Below, piece after piece: positions 11,859-53,700 of a stretch of DNA of 64,000 bases. Source of the DNA: Bacteroidales bacterium (GTDB taxonomy: Bacteria > Bacteroidota > Bacteroidia > Bacteroidales > UBA932); assembly GCA_024398095.1 (NCBI GenBank), contig JAKSJK010000001.1:8848-72847 (forward strand), read 5' to 3'. The stretch's first letter is position 1; each line of letters opens with the position of its first letter. Below the pieces are notes generated by a model, which had not been told where the DNA came from, made no database searches, and saw only the letters and a program-made list of their open reading frames with translations. Both the position numbers and the translations under genes were made by a program.

Positions 11859-11866
11859 CAAATTTA
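11859..11866 (-). promoter_or_regulatory. Bacteroidetes -7 promoter element (TAAATTTG) for uxuB-uxuA-susC/D
   Basis: Plus-strand caaattta = TAnnTTTG on the minus strand, about 60 bp upstream of the uxuB ATG. Confidence 0.65.
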
Positions 11867-11944
11867 GGTAGATATTTGAGATATACAATAGAACATCTCT
11901 AGAAATTTGTACAAAAATTACCAACATCCGTACAAAAACAGCTT

Positions 11945-30194: not shown

Positions 30195-30201
30195 CTGAGA
30201 C

Positions 30202-31835: not shown

Positions 31836-33407
31836 TTATTTTACATTAATTTTTCCAAGTCTGAGCCAGCCGCCGGAAGTGAGGCTGGAGGTCTTTACAG
31901 ACAGATCGATAGCCGGGCTGTTGCCCTTGGTCGTATCTACGATGGCAAGGGCCCAGGTGTAGTTGCCTGCAGCCACCTTGTCGAGTGTGATTTTAGAAGT
32001 ATATTCCTTCGGGCTGCCCTGATGCCAGTCAGAAGGATGCACATCGTCCATGATGAAGATCCTCGCCGGCTGCTCGGTATTAGGGTTGAGCAAGGCAAAG
32101 GCAAACTTATATTTCTGATAGACCGGCACATTGGTCGGGCAATAGGACCAGCCTAGGTTGAGCCATCTGTGCTTGATGCTCACCGTGGCATCCCTGGTGC
32201 CGGAAGTCGGGATGACAACGCGGTCCGGATAGAGGCGGTAGATGCCTTCCTGGATGAAGCGTTCCACGAGATCGTAGGCCTCATTGAACCAGGACCAGGT
32301 CTCGCCTGCCCCGAGGTTGCTGTTGTAGCGGAGGTCCATGGTGTTGGCATGGATGTACTTCGCATCGTCGTATTCCCCCTTGCGGACCTCAGCCCAGTCA
32401 GAATAGCCGTCGCCCTTGATCGAGCCTCCGTGAGATGCGCGCACCCATCCGCCTTCTGCAGTAAAAGGGACGGTGTACATCAGAGAGGTCAGCATGCCCT
32501 TTTCCCAGGTTGAGAAATAAGTGTGCATGCCCAGGGCTGCACTGCCCACGACAAAACCCTTGCTCACAGCCTTGCGCACAAGCCTTTCCGAATCGGGGTC
32601 ATATTTATTTCCGTCCCATTCGGTGAGGCATCCTAGCCATCTGTGGCCGTTTGCCACCACCGGGACCTTGGTAAATTCTTTTGCGAAAAGGTCGCAGACA
32701 TAGTCGAAGACCGCCTCGCGTGGAGAAACATCTCCTGTAGTGTACTTGCAACTGTGGTACTCCCCCCACTTGCCCATGCCGAAGCCCTCGATGCACTGCA
32801 CCAGGTCGGGATCGTTGTACTGCTGGGCGAAGGCGTGGATGAACTTGGCGTAACACTCCTGGAATACAGGATCGTCCGGATAGGGACTCCAGACTTTCGT
32901 AGAGGTACCGGTAGTGGTCTCGAAGGTCTTGCAACCCTTGTCCTTGACATATTGAGGAGTGCAGTTGAAATGCTGGTCGCGGCTGTCGAGACTGAAGCCG
33001 AAGGCGATCTTGAGTCCCCTCTGCTTCGCTCCTTCGACCAGATATTTCAATCTCTGAGCCTCCTTGGTATTCACGTCGTCGGTCCAGAAATACTTGCCCT
33101 CCTCCGGCTCTGCCTGGGACCATTTGAAACGGATCAGCAAGGTAGTGCAGTAGTCAGAGACATTGACCTTGCCCACACTGCTGTCAAAATTGTCGTAGGC
33201 CTCCCAGAAATTGTCTGCGAGTCCGTCACCCACACCGGAGTAAAGAAACCAGCCGCTGAACGGGTTCTTGAGATTCCTCTTGCGGTCGGGAGAAATGTTC
33301 ACGGTCTCCCCCTCCGTCTTGCTGCCGTCATTGACAGGTTCCTTGTGGCAGGAGACCAAGGTCCCAGCCACAAGGAGCGCTATCATAAATACTTTAGGTC
33401 TAAACAT
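31836..33407 (-). CDS. DUF4832-like putative glycoside hydrolase lipoprotein (paralog A)
   Basis: Lipobox LVSC; NPFSGW, PYPDDPVFQ, GKWGEYH, AEGGW, YRLYP, WLNLGW shared with three other copies in the window. Confidence 0.8.
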   Translation of the reverse strand: MFRPKVFMIALLVAGTLVSCHKEPVNDGSKTEGETVNISPDRKRNLKNPFSGWFLYSGVGDGLADNFWEAYDNFDSSVGKVNVSDYCTTLLIRFKWSQAEPEEGKYFWTDDVNTKEAQRLKYLVEGAKQRGLKIAFGFSLDSRDQHFNCTPQYVKDKGCKTFETTTGTSTKVWSPYPDDPVFQECYAKFIHAFAQQYNDPDLVQCIEGFGMGKWGEYHSCKYTTGDVSPREAVFDYVCDLFAKEFTKVPVVANGHRWLGCLTEWDGNKYDPDSERLVRKAVSKGFVVGSAALGMHTYFSTWEKGMLTSLMYTVPFTAEGGWVRASHGGSIKGDGYSDWAEVRKGEYDDAKYIHANTMDLRYNSNLGAGETWSWFNEAYDLVERFIQEGIYRLYPDRVVIPTSGTRDATVSIKHRWLNLGWSYCPTNVPVYQKYKFAFALLNPNTEQPARIFIMDDVHPSDWHQGSPKEYTSKITLDKVAAGNYTWALAIVDTTKGNSPAIDLSVKTSSLTSGGWLRLGKINVK

Positions 33408-34787
33408 TTATTCTTCAGAGATTACGAGAGCATTGATGAAGCCGTTGACCACATCGGTCCTGGAAGCCACGACAGCAGAAACTGCTATTTCAATGACTCC
33501 GTTTTCATCAGGGCTTACGTTTGTGAAGGTCGACACGAAGGAATTGTTGTCCATGTCGCTTGCAGATTTGGCACCTGTGTCCACATCATTGTAACTTCCG
33601 CCGCAGCTTACACGTGCAACTCGGATATCGCGGCTGCCGTTGTAACGGATGGAAAGTACTTTGAGAGTATAGGTCTTCCCTTCTGTACATCCGGAAATCT
33701 CGATCTTGCCGGTAGTATTTCCGTCGGAGATCTGGAGGGCATCCTTGTAGACATCCTTAGGGAAGTCGACATCGGCCTCGGTGTAGGTCGCCAGAGGCTC
33801 GGAGCCTGCACCGCCCCAGGTTGTGGAGAAGGCGTTTGTGATGGCAAGGGAAAGATCCGATGCACTGCCATCCGGGAGTTTCAGTCCTACAGGATTTGCA
33901 GAGGCAGCTGCTGCAGTCACGGCATTCCACTGCGAATTAGGAACTGCAGTTGGGCCGAAGTCCACATACACGGTCACCGCGTCGGTAGGTTCCACTACAG
34001 GTGCTTCTTTGCCGATCTGTACGGTGGTAGTCTTAACTCCGCCAGCGTGGAAGGTCGCGGTCTTGTCGGCCGTGAATTCCTTGACGATGGTGAAGGTGTC
34101 GGCTCCAGCTACAAGCGTGAAGGTCAGCTTTGAGCCCACGCTCGTGGTGAAAGGAGCACACTGCAGGAACATAGGCTTGGACTCTCCTACCGGAATAGAA
34201 ACATTCTGACCGTCCATCACGCTGTACTTCACAGGATTGACCGGGCTGAGCTCGCCTGCGCTGATCCTGTAGCGTCCACCCATGTTGTCAGTGTCGCTTT
34301 CGATGCGGATGCTGTTGACCACGAGATCCACCTCGCCGGTGTTCTCGATGACGGTCTTGATGATGGCAGTCAGATGATGCATCATCACGCACGGAGACTC
34401 GGATCCCACTGCGGTACCCTGGCCGTACATGGTCACTTTCACACCACCGGAATAGGTAAAGACGCCCTCGCCATAGCCGGCATTGTAAGGGGTCAGGACC
34501 TCGTAACTGTAGGTCACTCCGTCTTCTGGAGTAAAGTCAGAGCACTCGAAGGCATTCTCCTCGCCAGCAACCTTGGTGAAGTTGTAGGCTTCCCCGTTGA
34601 CCAGCACATGAAGGCTTTCTTCATTCTTCCAAGTAACCTCGAAAGTGCCCTCATTGAAAGATGCCTTGCTATCCTGAGAATCGAGATAGATCCTGAAAGG
34701 AGCGGAGTCAGCTACAGGAGCCTCCTCCGGCTTGCTGCAGGCAGCAAGTGCGACAAGCGCAAAAAGAGAGTAAAAAATCTTCTTCAT
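33408..34787 (-). CDS. Fimbrillin (type V pilin)-like lipoprotein with C-terminal putative glycan-binding domain
   Basis: Start moved to MKKIFYS; lipobox LAAC; SKASF...VTWKNEESLHV and MHHLTAIIK resemble Mfa1-like fimbrillins. The C-terminal about 190 aa are homologous to the C-terminus of the SGNH protein. Confidence 0.6.
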   Translation of the reverse strand: MKKIFYSLFALVALAACSKPEEAPVADSAPFRIYLDSQDSKASFNEGTFEVTWKNEESLHVLVNGEAYNFTKVAGEENAFECSDFTPEDGVTYSYEVLTPYNAGYGEGVFTYSGGVKVTMYGQGTAVGSESPCVMMHHLTAIIKTVIENTGEVDLVVNSIRIESDTDNMGGRYRISAGELSPVNPVKYSVMDGQNVSIPVGESKPMFLQCAPFTTSVGSKLTFTLVAGADTFTIVKEFTADKTATFHAGGVKTTTVQIGKEAPVVEPTDAVTVYVDFGPTAVPNSQWNAVTAAAASANPVGLKLPDGSASDLSLAITNAFSTTWGGAGSEPLATYTEADVDFPKDVYKDALQISDGNTTGKIEISGCTEGKTYTLKVLSIRYNGSRDIRVARVSCGGSYNDVDTGAKSASDMDNNSFVSTFTNVSPDENGVIEIAVSAVVASRTDVVNGFINALVISEE

Positions 34788-34800
34788 ACTGCGTTCCTCC

Positions 34801-34950
34801 TTAAAAAGTACCATCATCTTCATAATCTTCGAGGATGAAACCTCGTCTGTTTTCGTCGCTCGCTGTAAGCAGAGCGTTCTCAGATGCTATCTCGAGTATC
34901 TGGATAAAGGGGCTGGCGTATTCCAGCCCCTGTTTTTTCATCATATCCAT
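34801..34950 (-). CDS. 49-aa small protein with YxxP...ExxLLxxS motif
   Basis: Manual translation MDMMKKQGLEYASPFIQILEIASENALLTASDENRRGFILEDYEDDGTF*. It fills the gap between the SusE-like and fimbrillin-like genes (6 and 13 bp spacers). Confidence 0.7.
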   Translation of the reverse strand: MDMMKKQGLEYASPFIQILEIASENALLTASDENRRGFILEDYEDDGTF

Positions 34951-34956
34951 ATGGAA

Positions 34957-36564
34957 TTACCTTTGTTCGAACCTTACGGTTGCCTTGGTATTGTTCGTAG
35001 GATCGATCTTGACGATCACACAGTTGGATCCCTCTGGGATGAGGAAGTAAGCGTAACGGTTGTTACCCTGACCGCCTACAGACTCATAGTCCTTGCCGAA
35101 CTCGCAGCTTACATAACCGTTGTAGCTGTTACGTACTGCGGCTGCGGTAGAACCGTAAGCCCAGACGTTGTTGGCCTTGTAGTAGACGAAGAAGGTCACA
35201 TAACCCTTGATCTTCTTGGTTACGATGGTGCCGTCCTCCATGACCTTGAGGTCGTTGGAATCAGTCTTGAGAGTCTCACCAAGATAGGTGAATACGGTAG
35301 GATCTGCAAGACTCTGCTGGAGTTCAGGCATCCTCTCTGCGTCACCATAGATCCAGCCATTGAATCCACCGTACATCCACAGAGCAGTTACTTCCTGGAC
35401 GTAAGGGTTGATGCCGTCTGCAGTGTTGTTGTAGGAAACGGTGATGTTCTTCATGTCTGTAGCAGAAGAATAGATGGCCACGGTCTTCGCATCGGTGTCG
35501 ATCACAACGCGGTATACACCGTCAGCAGGGATGTTCCAAGCCTTGGCGTTGGCAGTGCCCACAGCGGACTGAGCGAACTGGGTTGCGTTACCGTCCTTGA
35601 TGTCGCCCTCGGTAGTAGAGACGATGGCAAGGGTACGGGCACCTTCGAACTCGAGAGGCATGTAGAGAGTACCGGCCTTGAGTTCACCACGGAACGCGAA
35701 GAGACCTGAACGTTCTACACAAGGAGCCACCTCGATGTCTTCTGAATTCACGGCAGTACCTGCGAGGAAGATCTTGTCCACCTCGAAGATCTGGGATACA
35801 GGGATGATCTCCACAGTCTTGGTAGCCATATTGAGTTTCACCCTGTAGGCATCCGGAACTGTTATGTTCCATCCGCCGCCCTGGGCTGCGTCAACCACGG
35901 TTGCAGCCATAGGCTCAGAAGAAATTTCTGAAGAACCTGCAGGAACGATGAGGTTGTTCTCGTCGCCATAGACAACCGGGAAGTTGAGCTGGCCGGCCTT
36001 GAGGTTGCCCTGCCACTGGAATGCGTCAGGATTGCTGCCGGCAGTGAGTTTCACAGGCTCACCTACAGCAGTACCACCGATGTAGATCTCGTCACCTGCA
36101 AACTGCTTAGGACCATAGGTCTTGAGAGTAACCTCCACGCTGGCCTGGTCCGGGATGATCAGGGACGGACCGCTGAAGGAAGCAGATACCGTGAAACGGA
36201 GCTTGCTCTTGGAGCTGGTCTTCTGGCCGAAGCGGTTGATCAGCATGTTCTGGAGCTGCTCGTGGGTGTAGGAACGGGTAAATACGCCGTCATCCTCATA
36301 CTCGTGGACGCCCTCAGCAGCGCTGGTTGCATGCTCCACGTAATACTCGTAAGTGGTGATATAGTCGTCACCGTAGTCAGTTGCCGCAGTCCAGGAAATG
36401 GTCAGTGCGACCTCATCCTTCTTGCTTTCGTCGAGTACGACAGACTCTGCAGAGGCTGTCATTTCGACACTGAAATTATGCCATGACTTCTCGTTGTCGA
36501 CCTTCTGCTGGCATGCGATTGCAAGCGGAAGAAGGAGCAATGAAGCCTTAAGTGATGCTTTCAT
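34957..36564 (-). CDS. SusE/SusF-like surface glycan-binding lipoprotein
   Basis: Lipobox AIAC; N-terminal SusE-like Ig domain (ALTISWTAA) and tandem beta-sandwich repeats; directly after SusD. Confidence 0.8.
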   Translation of the reverse strand: MKASLKASLLLLPLAIACQQKVDNEKSWHNFSVEMTASAESVVLDESKKDEVALTISWTAATDYGDDYITTYEYYVEHATSAAEGVHEYEDDGVFTRSYTHEQLQNMLINRFGQKTSSKSKLRFTVSASFSGPSLIIPDQASVEVTLKTYGPKQFAGDEIYIGGTAVGEPVKLTAGSNPDAFQWQGNLKAGQLNFPVVYGDENNLIVPAGSSEISSEPMAATVVDAAQGGGWNITVPDAYRVKLNMATKTVEIIPVSQIFEVDKIFLAGTAVNSEDIEVAPCVERSGLFAFRGELKAGTLYMPLEFEGARTLAIVSTTEGDIKDGNATQFAQSAVGTANAKAWNIPADGVYRVVIDTDAKTVAIYSSATDMKNITVSYNNTADGINPYVQEVTALWMYGGFNGWIYGDAERMPELQQSLADPTVFTYLGETLKTDSNDLKVMEDGTIVTKKIKGYVTFFVYYKANNVWAYGSTAAAVRNSYNGYVSCEFGKDYESVGGQGNNRYAYFLIPEGSNCVIVKIDPTNNTKATVRFEQR

Positions 36565-36582
36565 TATATAGTGTATTATCTG

Positions 36583-38307
36583 TTAATAACCTGGATTCTG
36601 GGTAAGATTACCGTTGGAAAGGTCGATGTCGTGGGTAGGAATAGGCCAGAGCATCTGCCTCTCAGGGAAGATTCTCTGAGCGCCTCTGCTGATGAGACCT
36701 GCCTCTGCCATAGGCTCGAAGTTAGCGAGACCATCCTCGTCGATCTGAGGAGTCTCAGGCCAGAAGTAGAGACCCTTGTCGTAGACCTTGGTCTTCCACT
36801 CTGCGGCATCGGTGAGGTTGATGTAGTTGTAAGAGTTGAGAGCCTTCTTTGCGAGATCCCAGCGGATGAGGTCCATGTAACGACGGCACTCCTTTGCGAG
36901 CTCCACACGCCTCTCCAGACGGACGGTCTTGCGGAGAGTTGCCTGGTCGGTCGCAGTTACGGCAGGATACTCGGTGGTCATGGTCACATTCACGCCATAT
37001 GCCCTTGCACGTACGGAATTGATAGCCTCGAGAACGCTTGCATCGATTTCGTTGAGCTCGATCTTTGCCTCTGCATACATGAGGAGCACGTCAGCGTAGC
37101 GCATGATCAGATAGTCCACATCGCTGTTGAGACCGTTCTCAAGCCAAGAGCCGTCCACGCCCTTCTTCCAGATAAGACCGTTGAATGAGGCGTACTGCTG
37201 GTTGGCGCGGGAGTCGTTATTGGCCTGTTCCTTACCGGTGGTGAGGTTCATGACATTCTTTGCAACCGGAGATGGATCGTAGATGAAACCGCAGTGTTCG
37301 GAGCCGAACTCGACGATGGTCATGCAGCAGCGTGGGTCGCGGTTCTTGAATGGATTGTGAGGATCGAAGAGAGGAGACTCGTCGATAGGCAGACCGTCGG
37401 TGCAGAGGAAGGCTGCGAGGAGATCCCATGAAGGGGTGTCTGCAGCATATCCGCCTGCATTTCTAGGAAGTCCGTTCTTCACATACCACTGGTCGAGTAC
37501 TACGCTGTTGGTGATGGAACGAGGGATGCAGAAGATCTTCTCGTCGTTCTCCCTGGTGGTCTGGAGGAAGAGTTTTGCCCAATCAGGCTCGAGCCTGTAG
37601 ACATTGAGGTCCATGCAGGCCTTTGCAGACTCAGCCATGATCTTCCAGTCCTTCATATACATGGCGAAACGCGCCTTCATTGCAAGGGCGGCACCCTTGG
37701 TGAAGTGGGAGGATGCAGGTACATGGGCTACAGGAAGGTGCTCGATCGCAAAATCGAAATCCTCATAGACATGCTCCTTGACCTCGGCGAGAGGAGTGCG
37801 CTGGAGCTGCTCCGCCTCGGTGATGGTGTAGTATCTGTCGATGTATGGAACATCACCGTAGAAGAAAAGGAGATCTGCATACTTGCAAGCCCTGGCAAAG
37901 TAAGCCTCAGCCTTGAAGCCGTCTACCATGGCCTGGCTCATGCCGGCCTCTTCAGCCCTGTGGATGTTCTCCAGGAGGGAGTTCGCACGGGAAATGAGTT
38001 TATAGCTCTGCTGCCAGAGATTGTATACATACCAGGTCTGACCGGTAAGTGTTGCGTCGAGGACAGAACCGCCCTCTCCCCTGTTGGTATTGCGGTAGGT
38101 AAAGTTATCTGTCCACTGCTCTGCTGAGAGGAAAGGCTCCTGCCAGTAGCCGAGGATGTAGAACTCATTCACCGCCATCTTAAGCTCGGCCTCGGTGGTG
38201 TACCAGGTCTCGCTGTTGCCCTGAGCGGTTGGCTTCAGGTCCATAGAGAGGCAGGAAGTGGCGAGAAGAGCCGCGCCTGCTATTGCACTGAATATTCTAG
38301 TTTTCAT
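36583..38307 (-). CDS. susD: RagB/SusD family lipoprotein
   Basis: Lipobox ATSC; AEAYFARA, NRDPR, MRYADVLLMYAEA, ERRVELA, DLIRW, QNPGY. Confidence 0.95.
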   Translation of the reverse strand: MKTRIFSAIAGAALLATSCLSMDLKPTAQGNSETWYTTEAELKMAVNEFYILGYWQEPFLSAEQWTDNFTYRNTNRGEGGSVLDATLTGQTWYVYNLWQQSYKLISRANSLLENIHRAEEAGMSQAMVDGFKAEAYFARACKYADLLFFYGDVPYIDRYYTITEAEQLQRTPLAEVKEHVYEDFDFAIEHLPVAHVPASSHFTKGAALAMKARFAMYMKDWKIMAESAKACMDLNVYRLEPDWAKLFLQTTRENDEKIFCIPRSITNSVVLDQWYVKNGLPRNAGGYAADTPSWDLLAAFLCTDGLPIDESPLFDPHNPFKNRDPRCCMTIVEFGSEHCGFIYDPSPVAKNVMNLTTGKEQANNDSRANQQYASFNGLIWKKGVDGSWLENGLNSDVDYLIMRYADVLLMYAEAKIELNEIDASVLEAINSVRARAYGVNVTMTTEYPAVTATDQATLRKTVRLERRVELAKECRRYMDLIRWDLAKKALNSYNYINLTDAAEWKTKVYDKGLYFWPETPQIDEDGLANFEPMAEAGLISRGAQRIFPERQMLWPIPTHDIDLSNGNLTQNPGY

Positions 38308-38319
38308 ATTCGCTCCGCA

Positions 38320-41300
38320 TTAGAATTTGATTGAAACACCGCCGAGTACGGAGGTAGTGATAGGATATGCGCTGGTTCCCATCTCCGGATCCCAGCCCTT
38401 AGGGAAGGCGCTGAGGCAGAAGAGATCGTTTGCAGACACATATAATCTGAGTCTCTTCACACGGATCTTCGAGGTGAGTGTCTCAGGAAGGGTATAACCG
38501 AGAGTGATGTTCTTCAGACGGAAATATGCACCGTTGAACATCCAGAAGGTAGAAGTAGCGTAGTTATTGTCCTTGCCTACCTTGGTAAGCCTTGGGTAAC
38601 GTGCGGCCTCGTTCTGCTCAGGAGTGTTGAATACGCTCCAGTACTTGTCGTCGAGGATTGCAGGGATGTTGCCATAGTTGTCACGCAGCGGCTGTACGTA
38701 TGCTGCAGACAGGTAGGAATTCTGCTGGCCGATGCCCTGGAATACGAGGGAGAAGTCGAGACCTCTCCAGTCGCAGTTGAAGCGGCCGCCGAACTGGAAG
38801 CGTGGAAGGGAGTTGCCGAGAGGCACGCGGTCGTACTCTGCGGAGATCTTGCCGTCAGGAACGCCGTCCGGACCGGAGATATCCTTGTACTTGAGGTCAC
38901 CCACGGTCACTGAGTTGTTCAGACGGGCTGACTCGCTCACCTCGTCGAGAGTCTGGAATATACCCTCGCACACATAGCCGTACCATTCATTGAAATATCC
39001 GCCCTCGCGATGGATCTTGCCGCCGCTGATGATGTCAGCGTTGTTGATGCTGACGATCTTGGAACGGAAGTCGGAGAGGTTGGCGCTCACGCTGTAGGAG
39101 AAGTCACCCTTGCGGTCGCTCCAGCCGATCTCGAGGTCGAAACCGTTGGTAGCCATCTTACCGGCATTGGTCTTAGGATTTGCGTAACCCATGAGATAAG
39201 GGATCTCGATGGAGAGGAGCATGTCGTCAGTGGTCTTCCAATAGTAGTCGAAGTTGATGTTGAGCCTGCGGTTGAAGAAGCCCAGGTCGAGACCGAGGTC
39301 GGTGGAAGTAGTGGTCTCCCAGCTGATGTCCTCTACTGCTAGTGCCCTCTGGGCTGCAGTCTTGTCAGATACGGTCTCGCCGTCCTCATAGAAGAGGGAG
39401 TTGCCGAAGTTCATAAGGGCCATGAATGGGAAATAGTTGTCACCGATTCTCTCGTTTCCGAGCATACCCCATGAAGCACGTACCTTCATGAATGAGAGCA
39501 CTGGCTTCACAGACTGCATGAAGCTTTCCTCTGAAAGAACCCAGCCTGCAGAGAAAGAAGGGAAGGTACCCCATCTGTATTTCCTGGCGAAACGGGATGA
39601 ACCGTCGTGACGTACATTGGCCTGGAAGAGGTAGCGGCCTGCATAATCGTAGGCAACGCGGCCGAATACAGAGTTGGAAGTATAGGCGGAACCGCTTCCG
39701 GAGTTGGTCTGGAAGTCCTCAGGTCCGATGTTCAGGTAAGGGTAGCCCACAAGCTCATACTGGTCGCGTGCAGCGGACAGGGTCTCGCTCTTGAGCACAT
39801 AGTTCTCATAGCCGACCATGGCGCTGATGTTGTGGTTGCCGAAAGTACCGTTATAGTTGGCGAGGAGCTGGGAGGTGATGGTGTAGCTGTCATTGCGGTT
39901 TTCTGTGAGCTTGTTGGTTGCCCAGAGGCCGCTGCCGCTGTCGAAATAACCGCCTCTTACCTCAGGATCGTCGGCGAGGGTGTAGTAGCAGGCATTCTTG
40001 AACTGCTTTGACTTGGTGTAGTTGATGAAAGGAGAAACGATCGCGGAGATCTTGAGTCCCTTCACAGGAGTAAGGTCGATGGAAGCCTTGCCACCGAGCT
40101 GGGTGCTCCAGGAATAGGAAGTACCACCGAGATCCACGAGGGCGTAAGGGTTTGAACCGGACTTGCCATCTGCATAGCGACCGTCATCCCAGACTGCAGC
40201 ATAGACTGCAGGCATCTTACGCATTGTGTCCCATGGGTCGAAGATAGGGCTGGTGTTCTTTGCCCTGCGGATGTTCAGGTCGAGTGAAGCGTGGAGGAGG
40301 TCCTTGATGATAGTGAAGTCATTGTTGGTCCTGAGCATGAATCTCTGGTACTGGCGGTTGCCATAGAGACCATCCACGTCGTCGAAAGTCATGGACACCT
40401 TGCTGCGTACGCTCTTGTTGCCACCTGAAACTGAAAGGTTGTGGGAGTGGCGCAGAGCAGCATTCTTCATGATAAGTTCACGCCAGTTGGTGATAGGATA
40501 CTTGTTAGGATCCTCAGCATTGTACCTGATCCAGTTCTTAACCTGGTCAGCAGTGTAGAGCTGGAAGAAACCGGCAGCATTGTTGTCATTGTAGAGAAGC
40601 TCGTTGTTCATCTCGAGAAAGCGGGTCACACCGACCATCTCAGGCTGCATGGTAGGGATTTCAGCGCCGACCTCACCGCTGTAGGTGAGTGAAAGGTCGG
40701 TTGCCTCGCCACGCTTGGTAGTGATGAGGATGACGCCGGCAGCTGCCTTCGAACCGTAGATGGAAGCGGCGGAAGCATCCTTGAGGACTGAGACGCTCTG
40801 CACATCGTTGGAGTTGACATAGTCGATGTCGCTGCACTGCACACCGTCCACGATGATGAGAGGGTTGGAATTGTCCATGGTGGTGATACCTCTGACACGG
40901 ATGCTGCTGGCTGCTGCGCCAGGTGCATTACCGTTTCTCTGTACCAGCACACCTGACATGGTACCCTGGAGAGCGGTCGAAAGGGTCGCGGTCTTCTTTG
41001 CGGAAAGCTCATCTCCACGGATTGCGGAAACCGCACCGGTGAGGTCCTTCTTCTTGACTGTACCGTAACCGATTACGACAGTCTCTTCGAGCACATTGTC
41101 GTTCTCGAGAGAAATTGAGATGTTCTGACGGCCAGCAACGACTGCCTCAGCAGTCTTGTAGCCGATGAAGGAGATTTCCAGGACCGCGTCGTCAGGGACA
41201 GAGATCGTGTACTGACCGTCTACGTCAGTAACAGTTCCCTGGGCAGTGCCCTTGATGAGCACACCGGCGCCGATCAATGGTTCGCCATTCTCGTCAGTAA

Positions 41301-41412: not shown

Positions 41413-41452
41413 TGATTTTTATATGTGAATTAGTTAGTGTTATCGAGGTGTG

Positions 41453-41460
41453 CAAATGTA
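41453..41460 (-). promoter_or_regulatory. -7 element (TACATTTG) for the susC(41412) operon
   Basis: TAnnTTTG 40 bp upstream of the ATG. Confidence 0.65.
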
Positions 41461-41480
41461 CCTATATATAAATGCAGGCA

Positions 41481-41518
41481 TGGGTATATTTTGTACGGAA
41501 ATGGTTCAAGTTTGTACG
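41481..41518. promoter_or_regulatory. Candidate HTCS activator site: 17-bp direct repeats with 21-bp period
   Basis: TGGGTATATTTTGTACG (41481) and TGGTTCAAGTTTGTACG (41502), 13/17 identical; a near-copy occurs at 55987. Confidence 0.6.
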
Positions 41519-41538
41519 TACACAATTTCAATATGGAC

Positions 41539-41570
41539 AAAATAAGGCGGCATCCGGAAATGCCGCCTTA
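41539..41570 (-). terminator. Rho-independent terminator after the 41594 gene
   Basis: Perfect 11-bp stem TAAGGCGGCAT/ATGCCGCCTTA with a 6-nt loop, followed by a T run on the minus strand. Confidence 0.8.
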
Positions 41571-41593
41571 AGGATTCATGGAAGTCAATTTCT

Positions 41594-43147: not shown

Positions 43148-43151
43148 ATGT

Positions 43152-44711: not shown

Positions 44712-44717
44712 AGAGTT

Positions 44718-46001: not shown

Positions 46002-46014
46002 ATTCTCCTATAAA

Positions 46015-47670
46015 TTAATTGGTATAACCAGGGTTCTGAGGGAACTCGACCTCCCTATTGGCATCGATGATGTCCTGAGGAACAGGCCAGAGAGCGTGGA
46101 ATGCCTGGACCTTGTCGCCGATTTCCTGGTTGTATTTCTGGACACGCTCCAGGTATTTGCCGGTACGCACGAGAGTGAACTTTCTGCTCTCCTCTCCCAC
46201 AAGTTCACGGATACGCTCGTTGAGGAGTTCATCCATGGTAACCTGTTCCGGTTCGAGGTTCGGAGCCTTGGCTCTCTTGCGGACCACATTCATCGCTTCT
46301 GCAGCCTTAGCTTTCTCGCCCATTCCGATGTAGGCCTCAGCAAGCTGCAGATAGGTCTCTGCAAGACGACACTTCATACGATCCTTGTATGAACCGGTCA
46401 GCGAGAGATTGTCTGACTTGCCGAAGAAGAACTTGGTGATGGCAGGGAAAAGCTGGCCTGACTTCCAGGTGTCGTCGGTGATGTTGCACTTCTTGCCAAG
46501 GGAGGCAGGAACGAGAGGATTGTTGTAGTACCAGTTCCTCTTCAGGCTGTAGTTGCTGTTACGGATGTCATTGTCAGTGAAGATACCGTTTTCAGCCTCG
46601 CCTGCGATCTGGGTAGCATTGGTATTCTTGACACCGACCCACCACTTCATAGGAGAAATCTGTGCGAGACCACGTCCGCCGAGAGTGTCGGCAAGCGCAA
46701 AGCCGTTGATGTTGAAGTACTGAGGATTCCATGCACGACGGGTCCAGTCATCGGAGTTTGTACCACCACCCACGGTCTGGTACTCGAACTGCATTACCCA
46801 GATGCTCTCCTTGTTGCCGGAAGCACGGTTCTGGTTGTTCTCGAGGAACATATCGGAGAATGGAGTTCCAGGCTCCTTGGCACCTGCGCCGAAACGCTCG
46901 GTATTGAGAGAGAAATACTTGCTGTCGATGATAGCCTGAGCAGCCTTTGCAGCCTCGGAATAGTTCTTCTGGAGGTTGTACATCTCTGCGAGATAGTGAT
47001 ATGCTGCCCACTTGGTGAGTTCACCAGGTTTCACAGAATCAGGATCTGACGGAAGATTCTCGGAAGCGAACTTGAAGTCGTCGATGATGTGCTGGAGCAC
47101 CTCCTCCATAGGGGTCCTGGAGAATGAAAGCTTGAAAGGTCTTTCAATCTTCTCAACCCATGGAACGTCGCCATATAGATAGATGAGTGTACGATAGCCG
47201 TACGCACGGAAGAAACGGGCGATGGACTGGAATTTGGGTTTGTCAGTCGGACGGTCCCAGTTCTCATTCTCCTCAGCGAAGGTCAGCATCTCATTTGCAG
47301 AAGAAATGAGGTTGTATGCCCAGTTCCAATATGACTTGACGAAAAGGGTCGCAGAAGTGAGGGTGAGATTTGCAAAAGGAGTAAGGGAACCGTCTTTTGC
47401 GCCATTCTGGTCGCAGATGTCGGTTGCAATCTGAAGTGCTTCATAGGCACATGCTCCATTGTGCATGTAGGCACCATTCTCACCCCAGGTGTTGTATTCG
47501 GAACGCGCGATGGCATAGAGACCGTTGGCTCCGGTCTCGAAGCCCAGTGAACTGGTGAAGGTGTTCTCTGGCGCGAGTTCGCTCTTCAGGTCCTCTACGA
47601 GGAAATCGCAGCTCATTACCGATGCTGCAGCGAGGACGAACAGACTTGCTTTGAATATATTGAGTTTCAT
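46015..47670 (-). CDS. susD: RagB/SusD family lipoprotein
   Basis: Start at MKLNIF; lipobox VMSC; ARFFRAY, LYGDVP, RLAETYL, ERIRELVGE, QNPGY. Confidence 0.95.
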   Translation of the reverse strand: MKLNIFKASLFVLAAASVMSCDFLVEDLKSELAPENTFTSSLGFETGANGLYAIARSEYNTWGENGAYMHNGACAYEALQIATDICDQNGAKDGSLTPFANLTLTSATLFVKSYWNWAYNLISSANEMLTFAEENENWDRPTDKPKFQSIARFFRAYGYRTLIYLYGDVPWVEKIERPFKLSFSRTPMEEVLQHIIDDFKFASENLPSDPDSVKPGELTKWAAYHYLAEMYNLQKNYSEAAKAAQAIIDSKYFSLNTERFGAGAKEPGTPFSDMFLENNQNRASGNKESIWVMQFEYQTVGGGTNSDDWTRRAWNPQYFNINGFALADTLGGRGLAQISPMKWWVGVKNTNATQIAGEAENGIFTDNDIRNSNYSLKRNWYYNNPLVPASLGKKCNITDDTWKSGQLFPAITKFFFGKSDNLSLTGSYKDRMKCRLAETYLQLAEAYIGMGEKAKAAEAMNVVRKRAKAPNLEPEQVTMDELLNERIRELVGEESRKFTLVRTGKYLERVQKYNQEIGDKVQAFHALWPVPQDIIDANREVEFPQNPGYTN

Positions 47671-47682
47671 TTTGTTCACTGA

Positions 47683-50600
47683 TTAGAAGGTTACGGTAAA
47701 ACCAAGCATGTATGAACGCGCAGTTGGGTATGAAGCGAACCAACCTGCCTCGTAGTTCAGTTTCTGACGAACGTTGGACATGGTGCAGAGGTTGTTCACG
47801 CTGAGGTTGATGTCAAGGCCCTTCATGCCTGCCTTGGAAACGACAGTCCTAGGAAGTTTGTATCCGAGGGTGATGTTCTTCACGGTCACATAATTGAGTT
47901 TCTTGTAATAGCCGTGGGAGAACTTGTTCTGATAGCCCGGAGATACGACATCTGCATCCGGAGTTTCCGGAGTCCAGTATTTAACGCCGTGGATGTAGTT
48001 ACCGGAACCGAATGAGTAGGAAACGATGTTTGCCACATTGTCCTCATGCCAGTATCCGAACTTTCCGTTCAGGAGGAAAGAGAAGTAGAGGTCCTTGTAG
48101 GCGAAACGGTTACCCATTGACATGGTAAATGCAGGGCGGGTGCTGCCGAGGATGACGCGGTCATCAGTGGTGATCACACCGTCACCATTAGCATCGTAGA
48201 GTTTAGCGTCGCCAGGAACGGCACCGGTCTGATGGGCCTTGACTACACCGTCCTCCTCGAAAGTAAACTCATCACCTTCCTGCCAGATACCGATTATCTT
48301 GTAATCATAGACAACTGAAAGAGGCTGGCCGATGAACCACTTGTTGTTGACATCGTCCTTGCCGTCGCCACGAAGTTCGACGATCTTGTCCCTGTTGAGG
48401 AAGAAGGTCAGGTCGGTGTTCCAGCTGAAGTCTGCAGTTCTGATATTTACGGTGTTGAGGGTGAGCTCGATACCCTTGTTCTGGGTAGCACCGATGTTAT
48501 CCCATATCCTATTGTAACCATTCATGACAGGAACGGTACGGGTCATGAGCAGATCCTTGGTGTTGGAAATGTACATATCCACGGAACCACCGAGACGACC
48601 CTGGAAGAAGAGGAAGTCGATACCGAGGTTTGCGGTGTAGGTAGTCTCCCACCTGAGGTCAGGGTTACCGATTCCGTTAGCAGGGAGATAAGCGGAGTTA
48701 ACTGCAGAGCTGCCGTCACCGAAGATGTACTTCACACCGTTGGTTGAGTAAAGACGGTCGAGAGTGGTGTAACGGGAGATAGCGTTGTTACCGTTGGCAC
48801 CATAAGAAAGACGCATCTTGAGCATGTCGATCTTGTCGGTGTTGTCCTTTACGAACGACTCCTCGGAGATGTTCCATGCGAATGCTGCTGAAGGGAAGAA
48901 ACCGAACTTGTTGTTGGCGCCGAATACAGAAGCACCATCGGCACGTCCGGTGAGGGTAACGAGGTACTTGCCAGCATAGCCGTAGTTGAGACGGAGCATT
49001 GCAGACATCATGGTCTCCTTCCAATAACCAGAGCCGATGACGATCTTGTTCTCAGCGCCGTCCATCTTGTAGAAGCTGGAATCATCGTTTACAAAACCCT
49101 CACCTGACTGAGAGGTGGAGTTGTTCTTCTTCTCCTGCATTGAGTAGAGAGCAGTAGCATCGATGTGATGCTTGCCGAAATCACGGTCGAACTTGAGGAT
49201 GTTCTCCCAAGTGTAGTCAGTGGTGAAGCTGGTGCTGGACTCAGCCCTGCCGTTGACCTTTCTACCTGTGATAGTGTTACGGCCATAGTAGGTTCCGGTG
49301 AAGTTGTCACGGTAGTTGTAACCAAGCTGAGACTTGAAGGTAAGGCCCTTCATGAGAGTAAGGTCGACATGACCGTTCACTACCACGTTGCGGCTGGTGT
49401 TCTTCTGGTCAGCATTGACGTCCTTCATAGGGTTAGGGAAGTTCGAGTAGTCCATTGGCTCCTCGTAGTACATGCCGGTCTCATCCTTGTAGATACCGTA
49501 AGGAGACTGTTTGATGGCATGCTCGAGGTTAGGAGTCACGCCGCCGGTCTCACGCTGGACGAACTGGGTGGTGATACCAACTGCAAGCCAGTTGTTGAGT
49601 TTCTGCTCGATGTTGGAGTAGACAGAAACACGGTCGTACTTGGAATTATATACGACACCAGGGTTGTGGAGGTAGGAAACGGCAGCCATGTAGGTTGTGT
49701 TCTCAGTACCACCGGAGAAAGACACCTGCTGATCTGTGTTGAAGGTATTCCTGAACACATAATCCTGCCAGTCATTCACGATGCCCTGGGCGTAGTTTAC
49801 TTTCTCGGATGCAGAAATGATCTGACCAGCCATCGGATCGAGCTGCTCACCTTCGTACATCTTGGTGCCGAGGCGGCCCATATCCTGCTTGTAGCGGATG
49901 TACTCGTTAGGACCCATGACCTGGATTCGCTGCATAGGCTGAGCCATGGAGAACTGAGCCTTGTAGGTAACGGAGAATGAACCTCTCTTACCCTTCTTGG
50001 TCTGGATGAGAATGACACCGTTGGAACCACGGGAGCCGTAGATGGCAACAGAAGAAGCGTCCTTGAGGACGGTCATGCTCTCGACGAGGTCTGGATCGAT
50101 GTCCGCGAGGGAACCCTCATAAGGGATACCATCGAGAATGATGAGCGGGCTGTTGTTGGCAGAAAGGGAATTCTGTCCACGAACGAGGAGTGACTGGTTG
50201 GAACCAGGCTTCTCATCGCCGGTGGTGATGGTAAGTCCAGCCACCTGACCTGAAATACGGTCCATGAGGTTACCGGTGGAGACCATCTTGAGGTTCGCCT
50301 CATTGACAACGGCGACACCACCTGTGAGGTCTTTCATCTTCTGGGAACCGTAACCGATTACCACAGCGTCCTCAAGGTTGAAAGAATCCGGAACGAGTTT
50401 TACATCGATAACCGTCCTTCCGTTGACGGATTCGGTTACCTCTTTATACCCGAGGCAGGAGTAGATAAGGTTGGCGGACGACGGAGCGCTGAGGGAGTAT
50501 TTTCCATTAGCGTCTGTTGTAACAGGAACCACCTTGGCATCGTCGGAGAAAATCACGATACCAGCGAGAGGTGCTCCGTTTTCGTCAACCACCTTACCAG

Positions 50601-50694
50601 ATACTTGGACATTCTGTGCGAAGGCGTTGAAACCTCCCGCAGAGAAAAGGAACAGCATAGCCGTAGCGAAAACGGCTCTGAAGGCCTTGATCAT
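47683..50694 (-). CDS. susC: SusC/RagA TonB-dependent transporter
   Basis: VVIGYG, LKDASSVAIYGSRGSNGVILIQTKKG, NPDLRWETT, terminal Phe. Confidence 0.96.
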   Translation of the reverse strand: MIKAFRAVFATAMLFLFSAGGFNAFAQNVQVSGKVVDENGAPLAGIVIFSDDAKVVPVTTDANGKYSLSAPSSANLIYSCLGYKEVTESVNGRTVIDVKLVPDSFNLEDAVVIGYGSQKMKDLTGGVAVVNEANLKMVSTGNLMDRISGQVAGLTITTGDEKPGSNQSLLVRGQNSLSANNSPLIILDGIPYEGSLADIDPDLVESMTVLKDASSVAIYGSRGSNGVILIQTKKGKRGSFSVTYKAQFSMAQPMQRIQVMGPNEYIRYKQDMGRLGTKMYEGEQLDPMAGQIISASEKVNYAQGIVNDWQDYVFRNTFNTDQQVSFSGGTENTTYMAAVSYLHNPGVVYNSKYDRVSVYSNIEQKLNNWLAVGITTQFVQRETGGVTPNLEHAIKQSPYGIYKDETGMYYEEPMDYSNFPNPMKDVNADQKNTSRNVVVNGHVDLTLMKGLTFKSQLGYNYRDNFTGTYYGRNTITGRKVNGRAESSTSFTTDYTWENILKFDRDFGKHHIDATALYSMQEKKNNSTSQSGEGFVNDDSSFYKMDGAENKIVIGSGYWKETMMSAMLRLNYGYAGKYLVTLTGRADGASVFGANNKFGFFPSAAFAWNISEESFVKDNTDKIDMLKMRLSYGANGNNAISRYTTLDRLYSTNGVKYIFGDGSSAVNSAYLPANGIGNPDLRWETTYTANLGIDFLFFQGRLGGSVDMYISNTKDLLMTRTVPVMNGYNRIWDNIGATQNKGIELTLNTVNIRTADFSWNTDLTFFLNRDKIVELRGDGKDDVNNKWFIGQPLSVVYDYKIIGIWQEGDEFTFEEDGVVKAHQTGAVPGDAKLYDANGDGVITTDDRVILGSTRPAFTMSMGNRFAYKDLYFSFLLNGKFGYWHEDNVANIVSYSFGSGNYIHGVKYWTPETPDADVVSPGYQNKFSHGYYKKLNYVTVKNITLGYKLPRTVVSKAGMKGLDINLSVNNLCTMSNVRQKLNYEAGWFASYPTARSYMLGFTVTF

Positions 50695-50736
50695 AATCTG
50701 ATAATTTAAGTAGTTAATAAAAAAGTTGAATAGTAG

Positions 50737-53700
50737 TTACTTGATATTGAGTTTACCGGCTTTCATCCAGCCATCCACCACGCAAGAGGCAGGGACGGAA
50801 AGATTGATACCAGGTTTGTTGTCGCTCTGGGTGTCGACTATGCCCACAAGCCAGGTGTATTCCCCTGCTGCGAGGCCGTCCAGTACGACCTGGAGTTCAT
50901 AGGAGGAGGCTGCCCCCTTGAACCAGGTGGAAGGTTCCGCGTCGGTGTCCACGAAGGTCTTCACGATCCTTCCATCTTTGTCCGCAAGGGCGAACGCCGG
51001 CTTGAAGCGGTAATTCCACTGAGGAATGTTGTTCGGGCAGTAACCCCAGCCCAGGTTCTCCCAGGTGTGGCAGATCTGAGCCTTGGTCCCGGATACTGCT
51101 ACGGTCGGGAACTTCAGAAGAGATGGGTAGAGTCTGTAACCTCCCTTTTCCACGAACTCCTGAACCATTTCTATGTTCTGGAACCAGGATTCAGTCTCGT
51201 TACCCACACGGAAATCCATCATATTTACGTGTGCCTGTTCAGCATCGTCCATTTCTCCCCTTCTCACATCCTCTGGATGTCCCTCGCGATAGCGTTTGGA
51301 AGGATCGATCCAGTAGCGATGGTGGGCACCGGTAATCCAGCCTCCCTCGAAGATGATCGGAAGTTTGTAATTCCACTTTGCGGCGAAATCCCTCTCCCAC
51401 TGCTGGTAGTAGCCGGTCATGCCGAAAGCGTCGTGACGCAGGCTGTAGCCCTTGCGGATGCAACTCTCCAGCATAGGCTCGGAATCAGGGTTTGGCAGAT
51501 CCTCCCATCCGTTTACATGCTGCACGGCAAGCACGCGGTGGTAATTGATGATCAGCGGCACCTTGGTGAAGGTCTGGGAATAGAGATCGGTGATCCATTC
51601 AAAGACAGGAATCTTGTTTGCCTCATCCTTGTATTTCATAGAATGGGCCTCACCCCATTTACCCAGGCCGTAGGCGTCGATGAAATCGACTTCATCGTAA
51701 TTATTGAATCTCTCAGCAAGAGCGGTGATGAACTTGGCATACTTCTCCTGGAATACAGGATCATCAGGGTAAGGTGTAAGCACTTCCCTGTCGCCAACCT
51801 TGGCACTGAAACATTCCGCACCGGCATTGATTACGTACATAGGGGTGTTCTGACCCTGGTCGCGTCCGTCCACGACGATACGGAAAGCCAGTTTCAGACC
51901 CTTCTCACGCACGGAAAGAAGAAGTTTGTTGAGTCTGGAATCAGGATCGTCCCAGAAATATCTGCCCTCTTCCGGCTCCATGGAAGCCCAGCTCGTACGG
52001 ATGTAAGTGGTACCTCCGCAATAATCCCACACCCTTGCAGTGGTGCTGCCATCGCCCACAGGAATGCGGTCATAGCCCCTTTCTGTCCAGAAATTCTCAT
52101 CGAAGTTGCGACCGAGATACATCACCCAGCCGTTGAGAGGGTTCCTGATGACGGAAGTCCTGTCTGGTTCCACAGCCAGCTCGGAATAGACCGGAACGCC
52201 CATATTCACGGAAGCCTTGAGCGGAAGGTCTGCAGATGAGCCTCCGACCATGATTTCGAATGCGCCCGGCTCGAGTACGAAGGACTTGCTCTTCACATCG
52301 TAGAAAGAGAAGGCATCTGCATTCAGGACTACCTCATAATTTGCAGAACCGCCCTTAGGGATGAAAATCTTCTGGTAGCCCTTGAGTTCCTTCGCAGGTC
52401 TCGGAACCGAAGATTCGATGTCACGCACATAGACCTGGGCGGTCTCACTGGCATCGAAACGGCCGGTGTTTGTCACCTTGAAACTGACTTTCAGACAGTC
52501 ATCAGCCATCTTGGTCAGCTGAAGGTCGCTGTAAGAGAAACTGGTGTAGCTGAGTCCATAGCCGAAAGGATACCTCGGAGTCTTGCCTGAACGGTCATAG
52601 CCACGGTAGCCCACGAATATGCCTTCACGGTATTCGACTCTCTTGTATGGCTGTCCCTGTGTACGTACAGGGGTATTATCATAATATGTAGCGTTAACAG
52701 GATTGTCTTCCCATACATTCTCCATGCTGACCGGAAGTTTGCCACTAGGGCTGCAGGCACCACTCAGAATCTCGGCAAGCGCCTTTCCTCCTTCCTGACC
52801 GGAATACCAGGCCATCAGCACAGCCTCGGCATTCTCACTCCAGCCGTTGAAATCTACTGCACCACCTGCGTTGAGCACCACTGTCACATGATCGTGGCTG
52901 GCAGTGAGCTTATTGATGAGCTCAACCTGAGCAGAAGGCAGGCTGAACGGCCTGTCGAAGCCTTCGCCTTCGATGTCGCTGTCAAAACCGCCGCAGAAAA
53001 CCACGCGGGTGGCAGTCTTGAGAGCAGCCATGAGCGCAGCCTCGTCGAAGAAGCCCATCTTGCATCTTGCAGTGGCATCCGAGAGATTGTCGTAGAACTC
53101 GAAACGGAGTCTGTATTCACGGCCGGCCTCAACCTTGAAGAAAACGGTTCTGGTAGAAATGGCGTGATTGCCCCAGTCACCACCGAGTTTCACGTCGTCC
53201 ACAAAGAGACGATAGCCGTCGTCGCCAGCCATATTGAAACGGACCGTACCGCTTGTCTGAGGCACGAAAACGCCCTCCCAGCGACATGAGAAGCTATCAT
53301 TACTGATCTTAGGATCCGGAGATTGGCGTTTCCACTCAAAGTCAATATCCTTGTCGACACGGCTTACTTCAGCCGGGCCTTCCAGAGTCTTGTTGTTGAA
53401 GAAAGTGGCGTCAAAGCCCTGCACTGAAGGATTGGAAACACAGTGCACAAGTGAACTGCAATCTGGATAGAGTTCAGCATCGGAGAGGACTGAGACAGAC
53501 TTGAGGGACTTCTTCAAAGCGCAGAGTCCGTCAGCGAGAGTAGTCGTATGGAAAGGGGTCACGAAACCGCTGCCGCCTCCAGTTGTCACGACAGTCGCAT
53601 TCGGGCCGAGCACAAGCACACGGTCGCGCTTGTTGAAAGGAAGTTCGGACTGCCTGTTCTCAAGGAGCACAACGCCCTCGCGGGCCAGCCTGAGGGCGAC

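What the first reader, a model, noticed from the sequence alone, without database searches (positions are those of the whole stretch)
31836..52190. Four paralogous DUF4832-like domains: the likely endo-acting enzymes and a candidate uncharacterised clan GH-A family
Seen: three lipoproteins (31836, 41594, 43152) and the C-terminal domain of the GH3 fusion share NPxxGW, RxxWxxxxPxxGxYxW, DxRD, TPxxV, PYPxDPxFQ, GKWGExH, NxHR, EGGW, VRxGE, DxR and YRLYP. Two invariant Glu about 100 aa apart (WGE, EGGW) fit the acid/base and nucleophile positions of clan GH-A barrels. They occupy the post-SusD/SusE slot where surface endo-glycanases normally sit, and I recognised no other endo-enzyme. Inference: retaining endo-beta-glycanases, possibly endo-glucuronidases. 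GH169 (Pn3Pase, which cleaves the GlcA-Glc pneumococcal type 3 capsule) is a comparison worth testing, not a result.
Basis: partly seen in the sequence, partly recalled or inferred. Interest (0 to 1): 0.85.

Follow-up and report, generated by a model that had tools for sequence, protein, structure and literature searches.

The report
Unclassified beta-amylase-like polysaccharide cutters
Four copies of an unnamed enzyme domain sit in a sugar-uptake gene cluster that recurs across gut and soil Bacteroidota; their predicted shape is closest to beta-amylase, and they likely cut a glucuronic-acid-containing bacterial slime polysaccharide, which would make them a new glycoside hydrolase family.

Summary
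Observation confirmed: three lipoproteins and the C-terminal domain of a GH3 fusion are 39-50% identical and carry all listed motifs. The confident model (pLDDT 91) is a TIM barrel plus DUF4832-like sandwich; both Glu are near-invariant (261 and 264 of 264). No PDB sequence is close. The clan GH-A reading is only partly supported: the second Glu is on strand 7, but the first lies 9 residues past strand 4 in G-x-G-x-W-G-E, where GH35 has its NE six residues earlier, and the best structural matches are GH14 beta-amylases (Z 20.5, 19.9, 18.7; GH35 18.0). Relatives lie in EPS biosynthesis operons, and one distant relative disperses alpha-linked Pel. The PUL recurs (61 of 80 loci directly behind SusD/SusE) with beta-glucuronidase, GH36-like, GH97, GH3, GH88 and esterases. 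Best reading, inferred: endo-hydrolases that cut an alpha-hexosyl bond next to GlcA in a bacterial exopolysaccharide. Two copies lost three conserved charged residues, suggesting two specificities. GH169 could not be tested. The scan earlier found the sister DUF4874 branch on other DNA (e1-5282810).

The parts
43152..44711 (-). Paralogue A, lipoprotein (Cys25), canonical type with R135, R288, D290; TIM barrel + beta-sandwich; E212 (44076-44078) and E318 (43758-43760); directly behind SusE
41594..43147 (-). Paralogue B, lipoprotein (Cys19), variant type with Gly at the three charged positions; E214 (42506-42508) and E314 (42206-42208) kept
31836..33407 (-). Paralogue C, lipoprotein (Cys20), variant type (G/G/A); E216 (32760-32762) and E318 (32454-32456) kept; in second SusC/D module
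50737..54657 (-). GH3-PA14-Fn3 glycosidase fused to paralogue D (about residue 821 to end, 50737-52197), canonical type; E1003 (51649-51651), E1104 (51346-51348); signal peptide without lipobox
54671..55909 (-). GH88 unsaturated glucuronyl hydrolase, HD-x-GF and IIDN motifs present
   Evidence: 3wiw E 1e-88
44718..50694 (-). SusC (47683-50694), SusD (46015-47679), SusE-like (44718-46001), first module
34957..41412 (-). SusC (38320-41412), SusD (36583-38307), SusE-like (34957-36564), second module
33408..34823 (-). Lipoprotein without Pfam hit; C-terminal domain shared with the DUF4886 protein and with a fusion to this family (P0133); likely glycan-binding
30202..31833 (-). DUF4886 lipoprotein (GNS motif, esterase-like by inference)
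27486..30215 (-). GH2 like PDB 8U01 (subfamily GH2_20, beta-galactosidase activity reported)
23426..27463 (-). Hybrid two-component regulator
19531..23514 (-). FAD oxidoreductase (PF12831) fused to GH36-like alpha-galactosidase-like domain
15496..19521 (-). GH2 beta-glucuronidase (6D8K E 3e-258, N-R-K motif) fused to GH3
13024..15486 (-). GH2, probable beta-galactosidase
9817..13021 (.). uxuA (9817-10983), short-chain dehydrogenase, probably uxuB (10985-11815), LacI regulator (11945-13021): glucuronate catabolism

Best explanation
The four domains are paralogues of one unclassified two-glutamate TIM-barrel family, predicted to be built like GH14 beta-amylase, and they likely act as the endo-hydrolases that open a glucuronate-, galactose- and glucose-containing, ester-decorated bacterial exopolysaccharide for this PUL. 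Shown: paralogy, motifs, conservation, gene context. Predicted: the fold and the strand positions of the Glu. Inferred: E212 (loop after strand 4) is the general acid and E318 (strand 7) the base or nucleophile; the bond cut is an alpha-Gal or alpha-Glc linkage to O4 of GlcA, with conserved Arg holding the carboxylate on the leaving side. The three lipoproteins would cut at the surface, SusC/D would import the pieces, and in the periplasm beta-glucuronidase would take off the newly exposed GlcA, followed by GH3, GH36-like/GH97 and the GH2 beta-galactosidases, with the GH3-fused copy recutting long pieces and uxuAB using the uronate. GH88 would handle the same end when it arrives unsaturated from a lyase cut made by another enzyme or organism. 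The two Arg-less copies would accept a differently decorated or neutral unit.
For: Fold: pLDDT 91.4, eight barrel strands, E318 on strand 315-319. Over 48,161 chains the three top rows are GH14 (3voc Z 20.5, rmsd 3.3, 287 aligned; 1b90 Z 19.9; 7upv Z 18.7), then GH35 (Z 18.0, 17.7) and GH42 (17.1) (same order). E212 in 261 and E318 in 264 of 264 dereplicated members, and both kept across a 20-sequence superfamily alignment at 17-30% identity. GH35's NE aligns six residues before E212. The G-L-G-x-x-G-E register matches the beta-amylase acid motif as I recall it (recalled, not confirmed). [quoted passage not shown] A full-length relative (hhalign probability 99.9, 421 columns) is the last gene of an enterobacterial Wzx/Wzc EPS operon with two GT4 and one GT2 (same order in a table of PMC6258164). 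Context: directly behind SusD/SusE in 61 of 80 loci; beta-glucuronidase in 39, GH36-like 28, GH2_20-like 26, GH3 23, GH88 21, GH97 17 of 80 within 10 kb. Fusions to GH36-like, GH3 and DUF4886 domains. In the Dysgonomonas hofstadii PUL it is the only candidate depolymerase. An exo-beta-glucuronidase and GH88 both need uronate at the non-reducing end, which a cut on the O4 side of GlcA gives and an endo-beta-glucuronidase does not (inference).
Against: No activity data for this branch. By sequence profile the hits are clan GH-A families (GH35 E 2e-5, GH42 E 2.5e-5, GH10 E 2e-4), never GH14, and a motif-only search did not recover beta-amylase. The structural margin over GH35 is about 2.5 Z at 11% identity. 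The GH35 alignment near strand 4 has low confidence. Glu spacing is 100-106 against 194 in soybean beta-amylase. SIR_1591 itself was not aligned and was assayed only by aggregate dispersal; the DUF4874 branch scores only E 1e-11 against this family. The 80 loci are the best of 556, are related to each other, and were not compared with a background. The substrate is read from neighbours only.
Confidence: 0.45

Rival explanations
1. Retaining endo-beta-glycanases of clan GH-A (endo-beta-glucuronidase, -glucanase or -galactanase) with a displaced acid/base, possibly distant GH169 members.
For: Strand-7 Glu as for a GH-A nucleophile; profile hits to GH35, GH42, GH10 over strands 2-4; GH35/42 close behind GH14 by structure; conserved Arg could bind a uronate at subsite -1; beta-glucuronidase is the commonest partner; GH169 is listed as retaining, GH-A, TIM barrel.
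Against: No NE at the end of strand 4 (position 206 is Gly in 235 of 264); GH14 ranks first; no protein named as Pn3Pase among 20 and 7 long hits in two searches whose ranges include about 1500 aa (weak evidence); an endo-beta-glucuronidase would leave little for the exo-glucuronidase.
Confidence: 0.3
2. Eliminases (lyase-type) that make the 4,5-unsaturated uronate ends which GH88 needs.
For: GH88 is intact but no Pfam lyase lies in the window or the D. hofstadii PUL; 11 of 21 GH88 loci show no lyase-like gene within 10 kb; no PL8, alginate-lyase or matching beta-helix gene was found in the 82% complete genome; conserved Arg, His, Tyr.
Against: Two Glu in glycosidase positions of a GH-type barrel; beta-glucuronidase (saturated ends) is more constant than GH88 (39 vs 21 of 80); Pedobacter PULs carry a separate beta-helix gene beside GH88; one Hepar_II_III gene exists elsewhere in the genome.
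Confidence: 0.1
3. Exo-acting enzymes, or for the two Arg-less lipoproteins non-catalytic glycan-binding proteins.
For: GH14, GH35 and GH42 are all exo-acting; one copy is fused to an exo GH3; the variant copies lost R135, R288 and D290 and always stand behind a canonical copy (11 of 11 loci).
Against: Surface lipoproteins in the post-SusE slot; secreted forms carry CBM-like, SLH and dockerin modules; relatives in EPS export operons; the variants keep both Glu.
Confidence: 0.12

Closest known systems
Streptococcus intermedius SIR_1591 (TIM barrel + DUF4832; PMC12345266, passages and section 21 read)
   Same: Same two-domain plan, same structural neighbours (beta-amylases, beta-galactosidases), acts on a bacterial exopolysaccharide.
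   Different: Lies in a pel biosynthesis operon and targets alpha-1,4-GalNAc; sequence not obtained here; the canonical DUF4874/DUF4832 branch scores only E 1e-11 against this family; no catalytic residues or products reported in the section read.
GH14 beta-amylases (3voc, 1b90, 7upv)
   Same: Best structural match (Z 18.7-20.5); two catalytic Glu as general acid and base; Gly-rich loop before the first Glu (recalled).
   Different: 8-11% identity, no PF01373 hit, Glu spacing 100-106 versus 194, DUF4832-like sandwich, uronate PUL rather than starch.
GH35 and GH42 beta-galactosidases (clan GH-A; 8faa, 4d1i, 5gsm, 4ucf)
   Same: Weak profile similarity over strands 2-4, Z 17-19, Glu on strand 7.
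   Different: Their NE acid/base site aligns with Y205-G206 here; similarity stops at strand 4.
GH169 Pn3Pase, Paenibacillus sp. 32352 (WP_079915027.1; only a supplement row and citing passages seen)
   Same: TIM-barrel hydrolase of a GlcA-containing bacterial capsule.
   Different: Retaining clan GH-A beta-glucuronidase; no sequence link shown; not met in two long-protein searches (weak).
Bacteroidota PULs with a post-SusD/SusE surface endo-glycanase
   Same: SusC-SusD-SusE-lipoprotein order, HTCS, periplasmic exo-glycosidases.
   Different: Depolymerase slot is filled by an unclassified family, here in four copies of two types; substrate not described in the papers searched.

Membership tests
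Clan GH-A | (beta/alpha)8 barrel | tested here: met
   Model with eight barrel strands; all top structural hits are GH barrels
Clan GH-A | Nucleophile Glu at the end of strand 7 | tested here: met
   E318 on strand 315-319, invariant in 264 of 264; position only, role untested
Clan GH-A | Acid/base Glu at the end of strand 4, usually as N-E | tested here: not met
   Strand 4 is 199-203, followed by A-Y-G-L-G-K-W-G-E212; GH35 NE aligns with Y205-G206; alignment confidence there is low
Clan GH-A | Glu pair about 5 A apart; retention on beta-glycosides | not testable with these tools
   Model coordinates not supplied; needs assay
GH14 | Sequence match to PF01373 | tested here: not met
   No hit among 94 members at E up to 1 or 38 members at E up to 0.1; 8-13% identity in structural alignments
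GH14 | Acid Glu in the Gly-rich loop after strand 4, base Glu on strand 7 | tested here: inconclusive
   Layout fits and GH14 is the top fold match, but the GH14 motif is recalled; motif searches in PDB and papers did not confirm it
GH14 | Inverting exo-hydrolysis of alpha-1,4-glucan | not testable with these tools
   Needs assay; context argues against starch
GH169 | Sequence similarity to Pn3Pase catalytic domain with aligned catalytic Glu | tested here: inconclusive
   Sequence not obtainable; not named among hits, which are weak evidence
DUF4832 (PF16116) / DUF4874 (PF16173) proteins | Pfam hits over the curated cut-off | tested here: not met
   DUF4832 20-23 bits versus 29.2 in three copies, none in 41594; no DUF4874. 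90 of 94 relatives give a sub-threshold DUF4832 hit
DUF4832 (PF16116) / DUF4874 (PF16173) proteins | Shared G-x-W-G-E, R/N-x-D, strand-7 Glu and G-Y-R motifs (superfamily) | tested here: met
   Alignments A4 and A6
Polysaccharide lyases | Match to a known lyase fold or Pfam lyase family | tested here: inconclusive
   No lyase among Pfam hits or the 50 listed fold hits; activity untested

The most novel reading that the evidence does not exclude
This is the founding branch of a large new glycoside hydrolase family that shares the GH14 catalytic layout, giving beta-amylase its first sister family, and it is the entry enzyme by which gut Bacteroidota (including Bacteroides ovatus) and soil Sphingobacteriaceae eat the GlcA-containing, alpha-linked exopolysaccharides or capsules of other bacteria, for instance a pneumococcal type 8-like or enterobacterial repeat; the same fold serves EPS producers as their own trimming enzyme, and Arg-less paralogues extend the range of repeats.
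Probability: 0.3. Interest if true: 0.78.

Novelty: new variant of a known kind. Interest (0 to 1): 0.57.

Why it matters
The family is large (1,022 clusters at 50% identity with E up to 1e-10), occurs in B. ovatus and other gut Bacteroidota, and has no solved or, in the papers searched, biochemically defined member in this branch. It marks a conserved PUL whose substrate is undescribed and probably microbial, which bears on how gut and soil bacteria feed on each other's capsules and slime. If it cuts alpha-linkages with a GH14-type pair of glutamates it would extend that mechanism beyond starch, and capsule- or biofilm-cutting enzymes are of practical use. New GH families are found regularly, so the surprise is moderate.

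Tried and rejected
Single-sequence and close-family PDB searches gave only chance hits. Pn3Pase and B. uniformis GUS papers were not held, so what they or their supplements say about DUF4832 or this PUL was not seen. Literature searches: DUF4832 (8 papers, 6 listed), GH169 (7), Pn3Pase (5), type 3 capsule terms, DUF4874 (1), recalled B. thetaiotaomicron locus tags (irrelevant hits), PDB codes; none described this branch or PUL, but subscription journals and CAZy itself were not searchable. Attempts to confirm the GH14 motif failed: two paper searches gave nothing, no GH14 gene was found in 6 or 301 genomes, and a 27-residue profile returned noise. A single-sequence model of 41594 was useless (pLDDT 31.5). 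The first tree run timed out; the FastTree run used 117 of 264 representatives. ESM Atlas gave only DUF4832-named clusters. No phage relative. NCBIfam gave only sub-threshold GH35. The 33408 lipoprotein was checked as a hidden lyase: nothing supports it. Substrates considered and set aside by enzyme content: starch, Pel (no GalNAc enzymes), xanthan and glucuronomannan (no alpha-mannosidase), gellan (no rhamnosidase), colanic acid (no fucosidase), glycosaminoglycans (no sulfatase, no PL8); these structures are recalled.
Full report
Observation. The window holds a long minus-strand run of genes from GH88 (54671-55909) to a GH2 (13024-15486), with two SusC/SusD/SusE modules, a hybrid two-component regulator, and uxuA with a probable uxuB beside it. 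They align over their whole length, are 39-50% identical, and each carries all ten specific motifs, against at most 3 of 10 in 4000 shuffles. The Glu pairs are 100-106 residues apart. Three are lipoproteins; the fourth is the tail of a GH3-PA14-Fn3 protein whose signal peptide has no lipobox. Pfam DUF4832 hits are below the cut-off and DUF4874 is absent. The genome (82% complete) has no further copy.

Family. A profile of the four found 621 relatives among 7,998 scored candidates; a 94-sequence profile found 2,269 clusters at E up to 0.001, 1,022 at 1e-10 and 202 at 1e-30 among 1.84 billion representatives. Named members come from Pedobacter, Mucilaginibacter, Dysgonomonas, Cryptobacteroides, Alistipes, Bacteroides ovatus and B. 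acidifaciens, and more distantly Paraliobacillus, Thomasclavelia and Hyalangium. It is patchy: 4 of 301 genomes across the phylum, 17 of 151 in the window's genus, both counts including this genome. Distant members carry F5/8, CBM4/9, ricin, SLH, cohesin/dockerin or T9SS modules, and others are fused to GH3, GH36-like or DUF4886 domains, all of which are PUL neighbours here.

Fold and catalytic residues. The model of 43152 has pLDDT 91.4 and pTM 0.88, with barrel strands at 57-63, 90-98, 132-137, 199-203, 252-255, 285-292, 315-319 and 359-362 and a C-terminal beta-sandwich. Among 264 full-length members dereplicated at 90% (from 471 full-length of 542 hits), E318 is invariant, E212 is kept in 261, and R96, W99, G211 and Y388 are invariant. 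E318 sits on strand 7. E212 does not sit at the end of strand 4 but nine residues on, in G-x-G-x-W-G-E. A 38-sequence profile hits GH35 (8faa E 2e-5) and aligns the NE of Cellvibrio Bgl35A (its acid/base, recalled) with Y205-G206, six residues before E212, at low local confidence; a barrel-only profile hits GH42, GH10 and GH35 but the shown alignments stop at strand 4. By structure, over 48,161 chains, the three best rows are GH14 beta-amylases (3voc Z 20.5, rmsd 3.3, 287 aligned; 1b90 Z 19.9; 7upv Z 18.7), then GH35 (18.0, 17.7) and GH42 (17.1), all at 7-14% identity. From memory the beta-amylase acid Glu lies in the same G-L-G-x-x-G-E register; three attempts to confirm this with tools failed. 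Passages of PMC12892837 and PMC8449922 give Glu186 and Glu380 as general acid and base of soybean beta-amylase, and the supplement of PMC8602953 lists GH14 as inverting without clan and GH169 as retaining GH-A. So the family is neither a GH14 member nor a canonical clan GH-A member, and may work like GH14.

Two types. Positions 135, 288 and 290 read R/R/D in 219 of 264 members. Paralogues 43152 and the GH3 tail have them; 41594 and 31836 have Gly, Gly and Gly/Ala, as do 21 members with Gly at 288. These fall, with two N/Q/A rows, in one clade of 23 (support 98, FastTree on 117 of 264 rows). In the 11 of 80 loci that have a G/G/G copy it stands directly behind a canonical copy. Both Glu are kept, so a change of specificity is likelier than loss of catalysis (inference).

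Context. Of 644 matched stretches 556 encode a relative and the best 80 were kept; they are biased to relatives of 43152, include several loci from one genome, and were not compared with a background. The gene lies directly behind SusD or SusE in 61 of 80; within 10 kb there is a GH2 beta-glucuronidase in 39, GH36-like 28, GH2_20-like 26, GH3 23, GH88 21, GH97 17, FAD oxidoreductase 17, CE15 9. The window's glucuronidase matches 6D8K at E 3e-258, listed as a B. ovatus GUS in a review table (PMC10535898, passage), and has the N-x-K motif of beta-hexuronidases (PMC12243196, passages). The 909-aa GH2 matches 8U01, subfamily GH2_20 with beta-galactosidase activity. The complete D. hofstadii cluster reads HTCS, SusC, SusD, SusE, this family, FAD oxidoreductase, DUF5040, GH36-like, GUS, GH88, CE15, GH2, GH3, with no other candidate depolymerase. 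The substrate therefore holds beta-GlcA, alpha- and beta-Gal or Glc and esters, and needs no mannosidase, rhamnosidase, fucosidase or sulfatase, which fits bacterial exopolysaccharides and capsules better than common plant or host glycans (inference from recalled structures).

Relatives in producers. S. intermedius SIR_1591, a TIM barrel plus DUF4832 in a pel operon, disperses aggregates held by an alpha-1,4-GalNAc polymer (PMC12345266, passages and section 21; operon also in bioRxiv 10.1101/768473, passages). I could not align SIR_1591 itself; a canonical DUF4874/DUF4832 protein scores E 1e-11 against this family, shares the G-x-W-G-E and strand-7 Glu, and lies beside GH31. A closer, full-length relative (hhalign probability 99.9) ends an enterobacterial operon of initiating glucose-phosphate transferase, export proteins, flippase, one GT2 and two GT4, the same order as a Klebsiella oxytoca table (PMC6258164, passage). 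GT4 enzymes make alpha-linkages (established knowledge). Both cases tie the superfamily to bacterial exopolysaccharides.

Mechanism. Most likely the lipoproteins hydrolyse an alpha-Gal or alpha-Glc bond to O4 of GlcA at the cell surface, which leaves GlcA at the non-reducing end for the conserved exo-glucuronidase; the same bond cut by a lyase would give the GH88 substrate. Pedobacter clusters have an unassigned 405-aa beta-helix beside GH88 that could be that lyase, but the window's genome shows no match to it, to PL8 or to alginate lyase, and one Hepar_II_III gene elsewhere, so GH88 here is unexplained; 11 of 21 GH88 loci lack a lyase-like neighbour in the flank. I put this reading at 0.45, a retaining endo-beta enzyme at 0.30 (GH169 membership perhaps a third of that), exo or binding roles at 0.12, and a lyase at 0.10. 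That the proteins are glycoside hydrolases of this PUL in some form I put near 0.85.

Comparison and novelty. No PDB chain is close by sequence. Searches for DUF4832, DUF4874, GH169 and Pn3Pase found no study of this branch or PUL; PMC13350694 and PMC7480376 (passages) only mention the domain. CAZy and subscription papers could not be checked. Pn3Pase was not among 20 and 7 long hits, which is weak evidence. Verdict: a real, widespread candidate new GH family in a conserved PUL of unknown substrate; a new variant of a known kind; interest 0.57.

Noticed in passing
window 54671-55909: Intact GH88 without any recognisable lyase in the PUL; same in the D. hofstadii cluster.
   Followed up: partly
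L014:2212-3429 and 11 other loci: Unassigned 405-aa beta-helix protein (weak GH28 hit, no PDB sequence match), often between GH88 and SusC in Pedobacter-type PULs; candidate new lyase.
   Followed up: partly
window 19531-23514: FAD oxidoreductase (PF12831) fused to a GH36-like domain that is only weakly similar to solved alpha-galactosidases (E 1e-4); both recur in the PUL (17 and 28 of 80 loci) with no known role.
   Followed up: partly
L119:2395-16582, L120:2282-16478: Plasmid-borne exopolysaccharide operon in Enterobacter and E. coli, flanked by transposases, ending in a DUF4832 hydrolase-like gene and galE.
   Followed up: partly
L009: A Bacteroidales-type copy of this PUL lies on a contig labelled as a Methanomethylophilaceae archaeon; probably mis-binned.
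   Followed up: no
window 30202-31833 and 33408-34823: Two lipoproteins share an unnamed 200-aa C-terminal domain (32% identical), also fused to this family in P0133; the DUF4886 protein has a (DPTP)n linker.
   Followed up: partly
window 1626-9790 and G000:C1:157-1905: A further module of two SusC-like genes and a SusD follows uxuA, and a second beta-glucuronidase-like gene lies just beyond the window's left end.
   Followed up: no
L106-L111: A distinct Prevotella-type branch (G-H-F-G-M-W-G-E, R-D-D-S) of the superfamily, mostly outside PULs.
   Followed up: no
L072:7017-7787 and 14 other loci: A 256-aa protein made only of the two all-beta domains of GH35 beta-galactosidases follows the GH2_20-like gene in 15 of 80 loci.
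   Followed up: no
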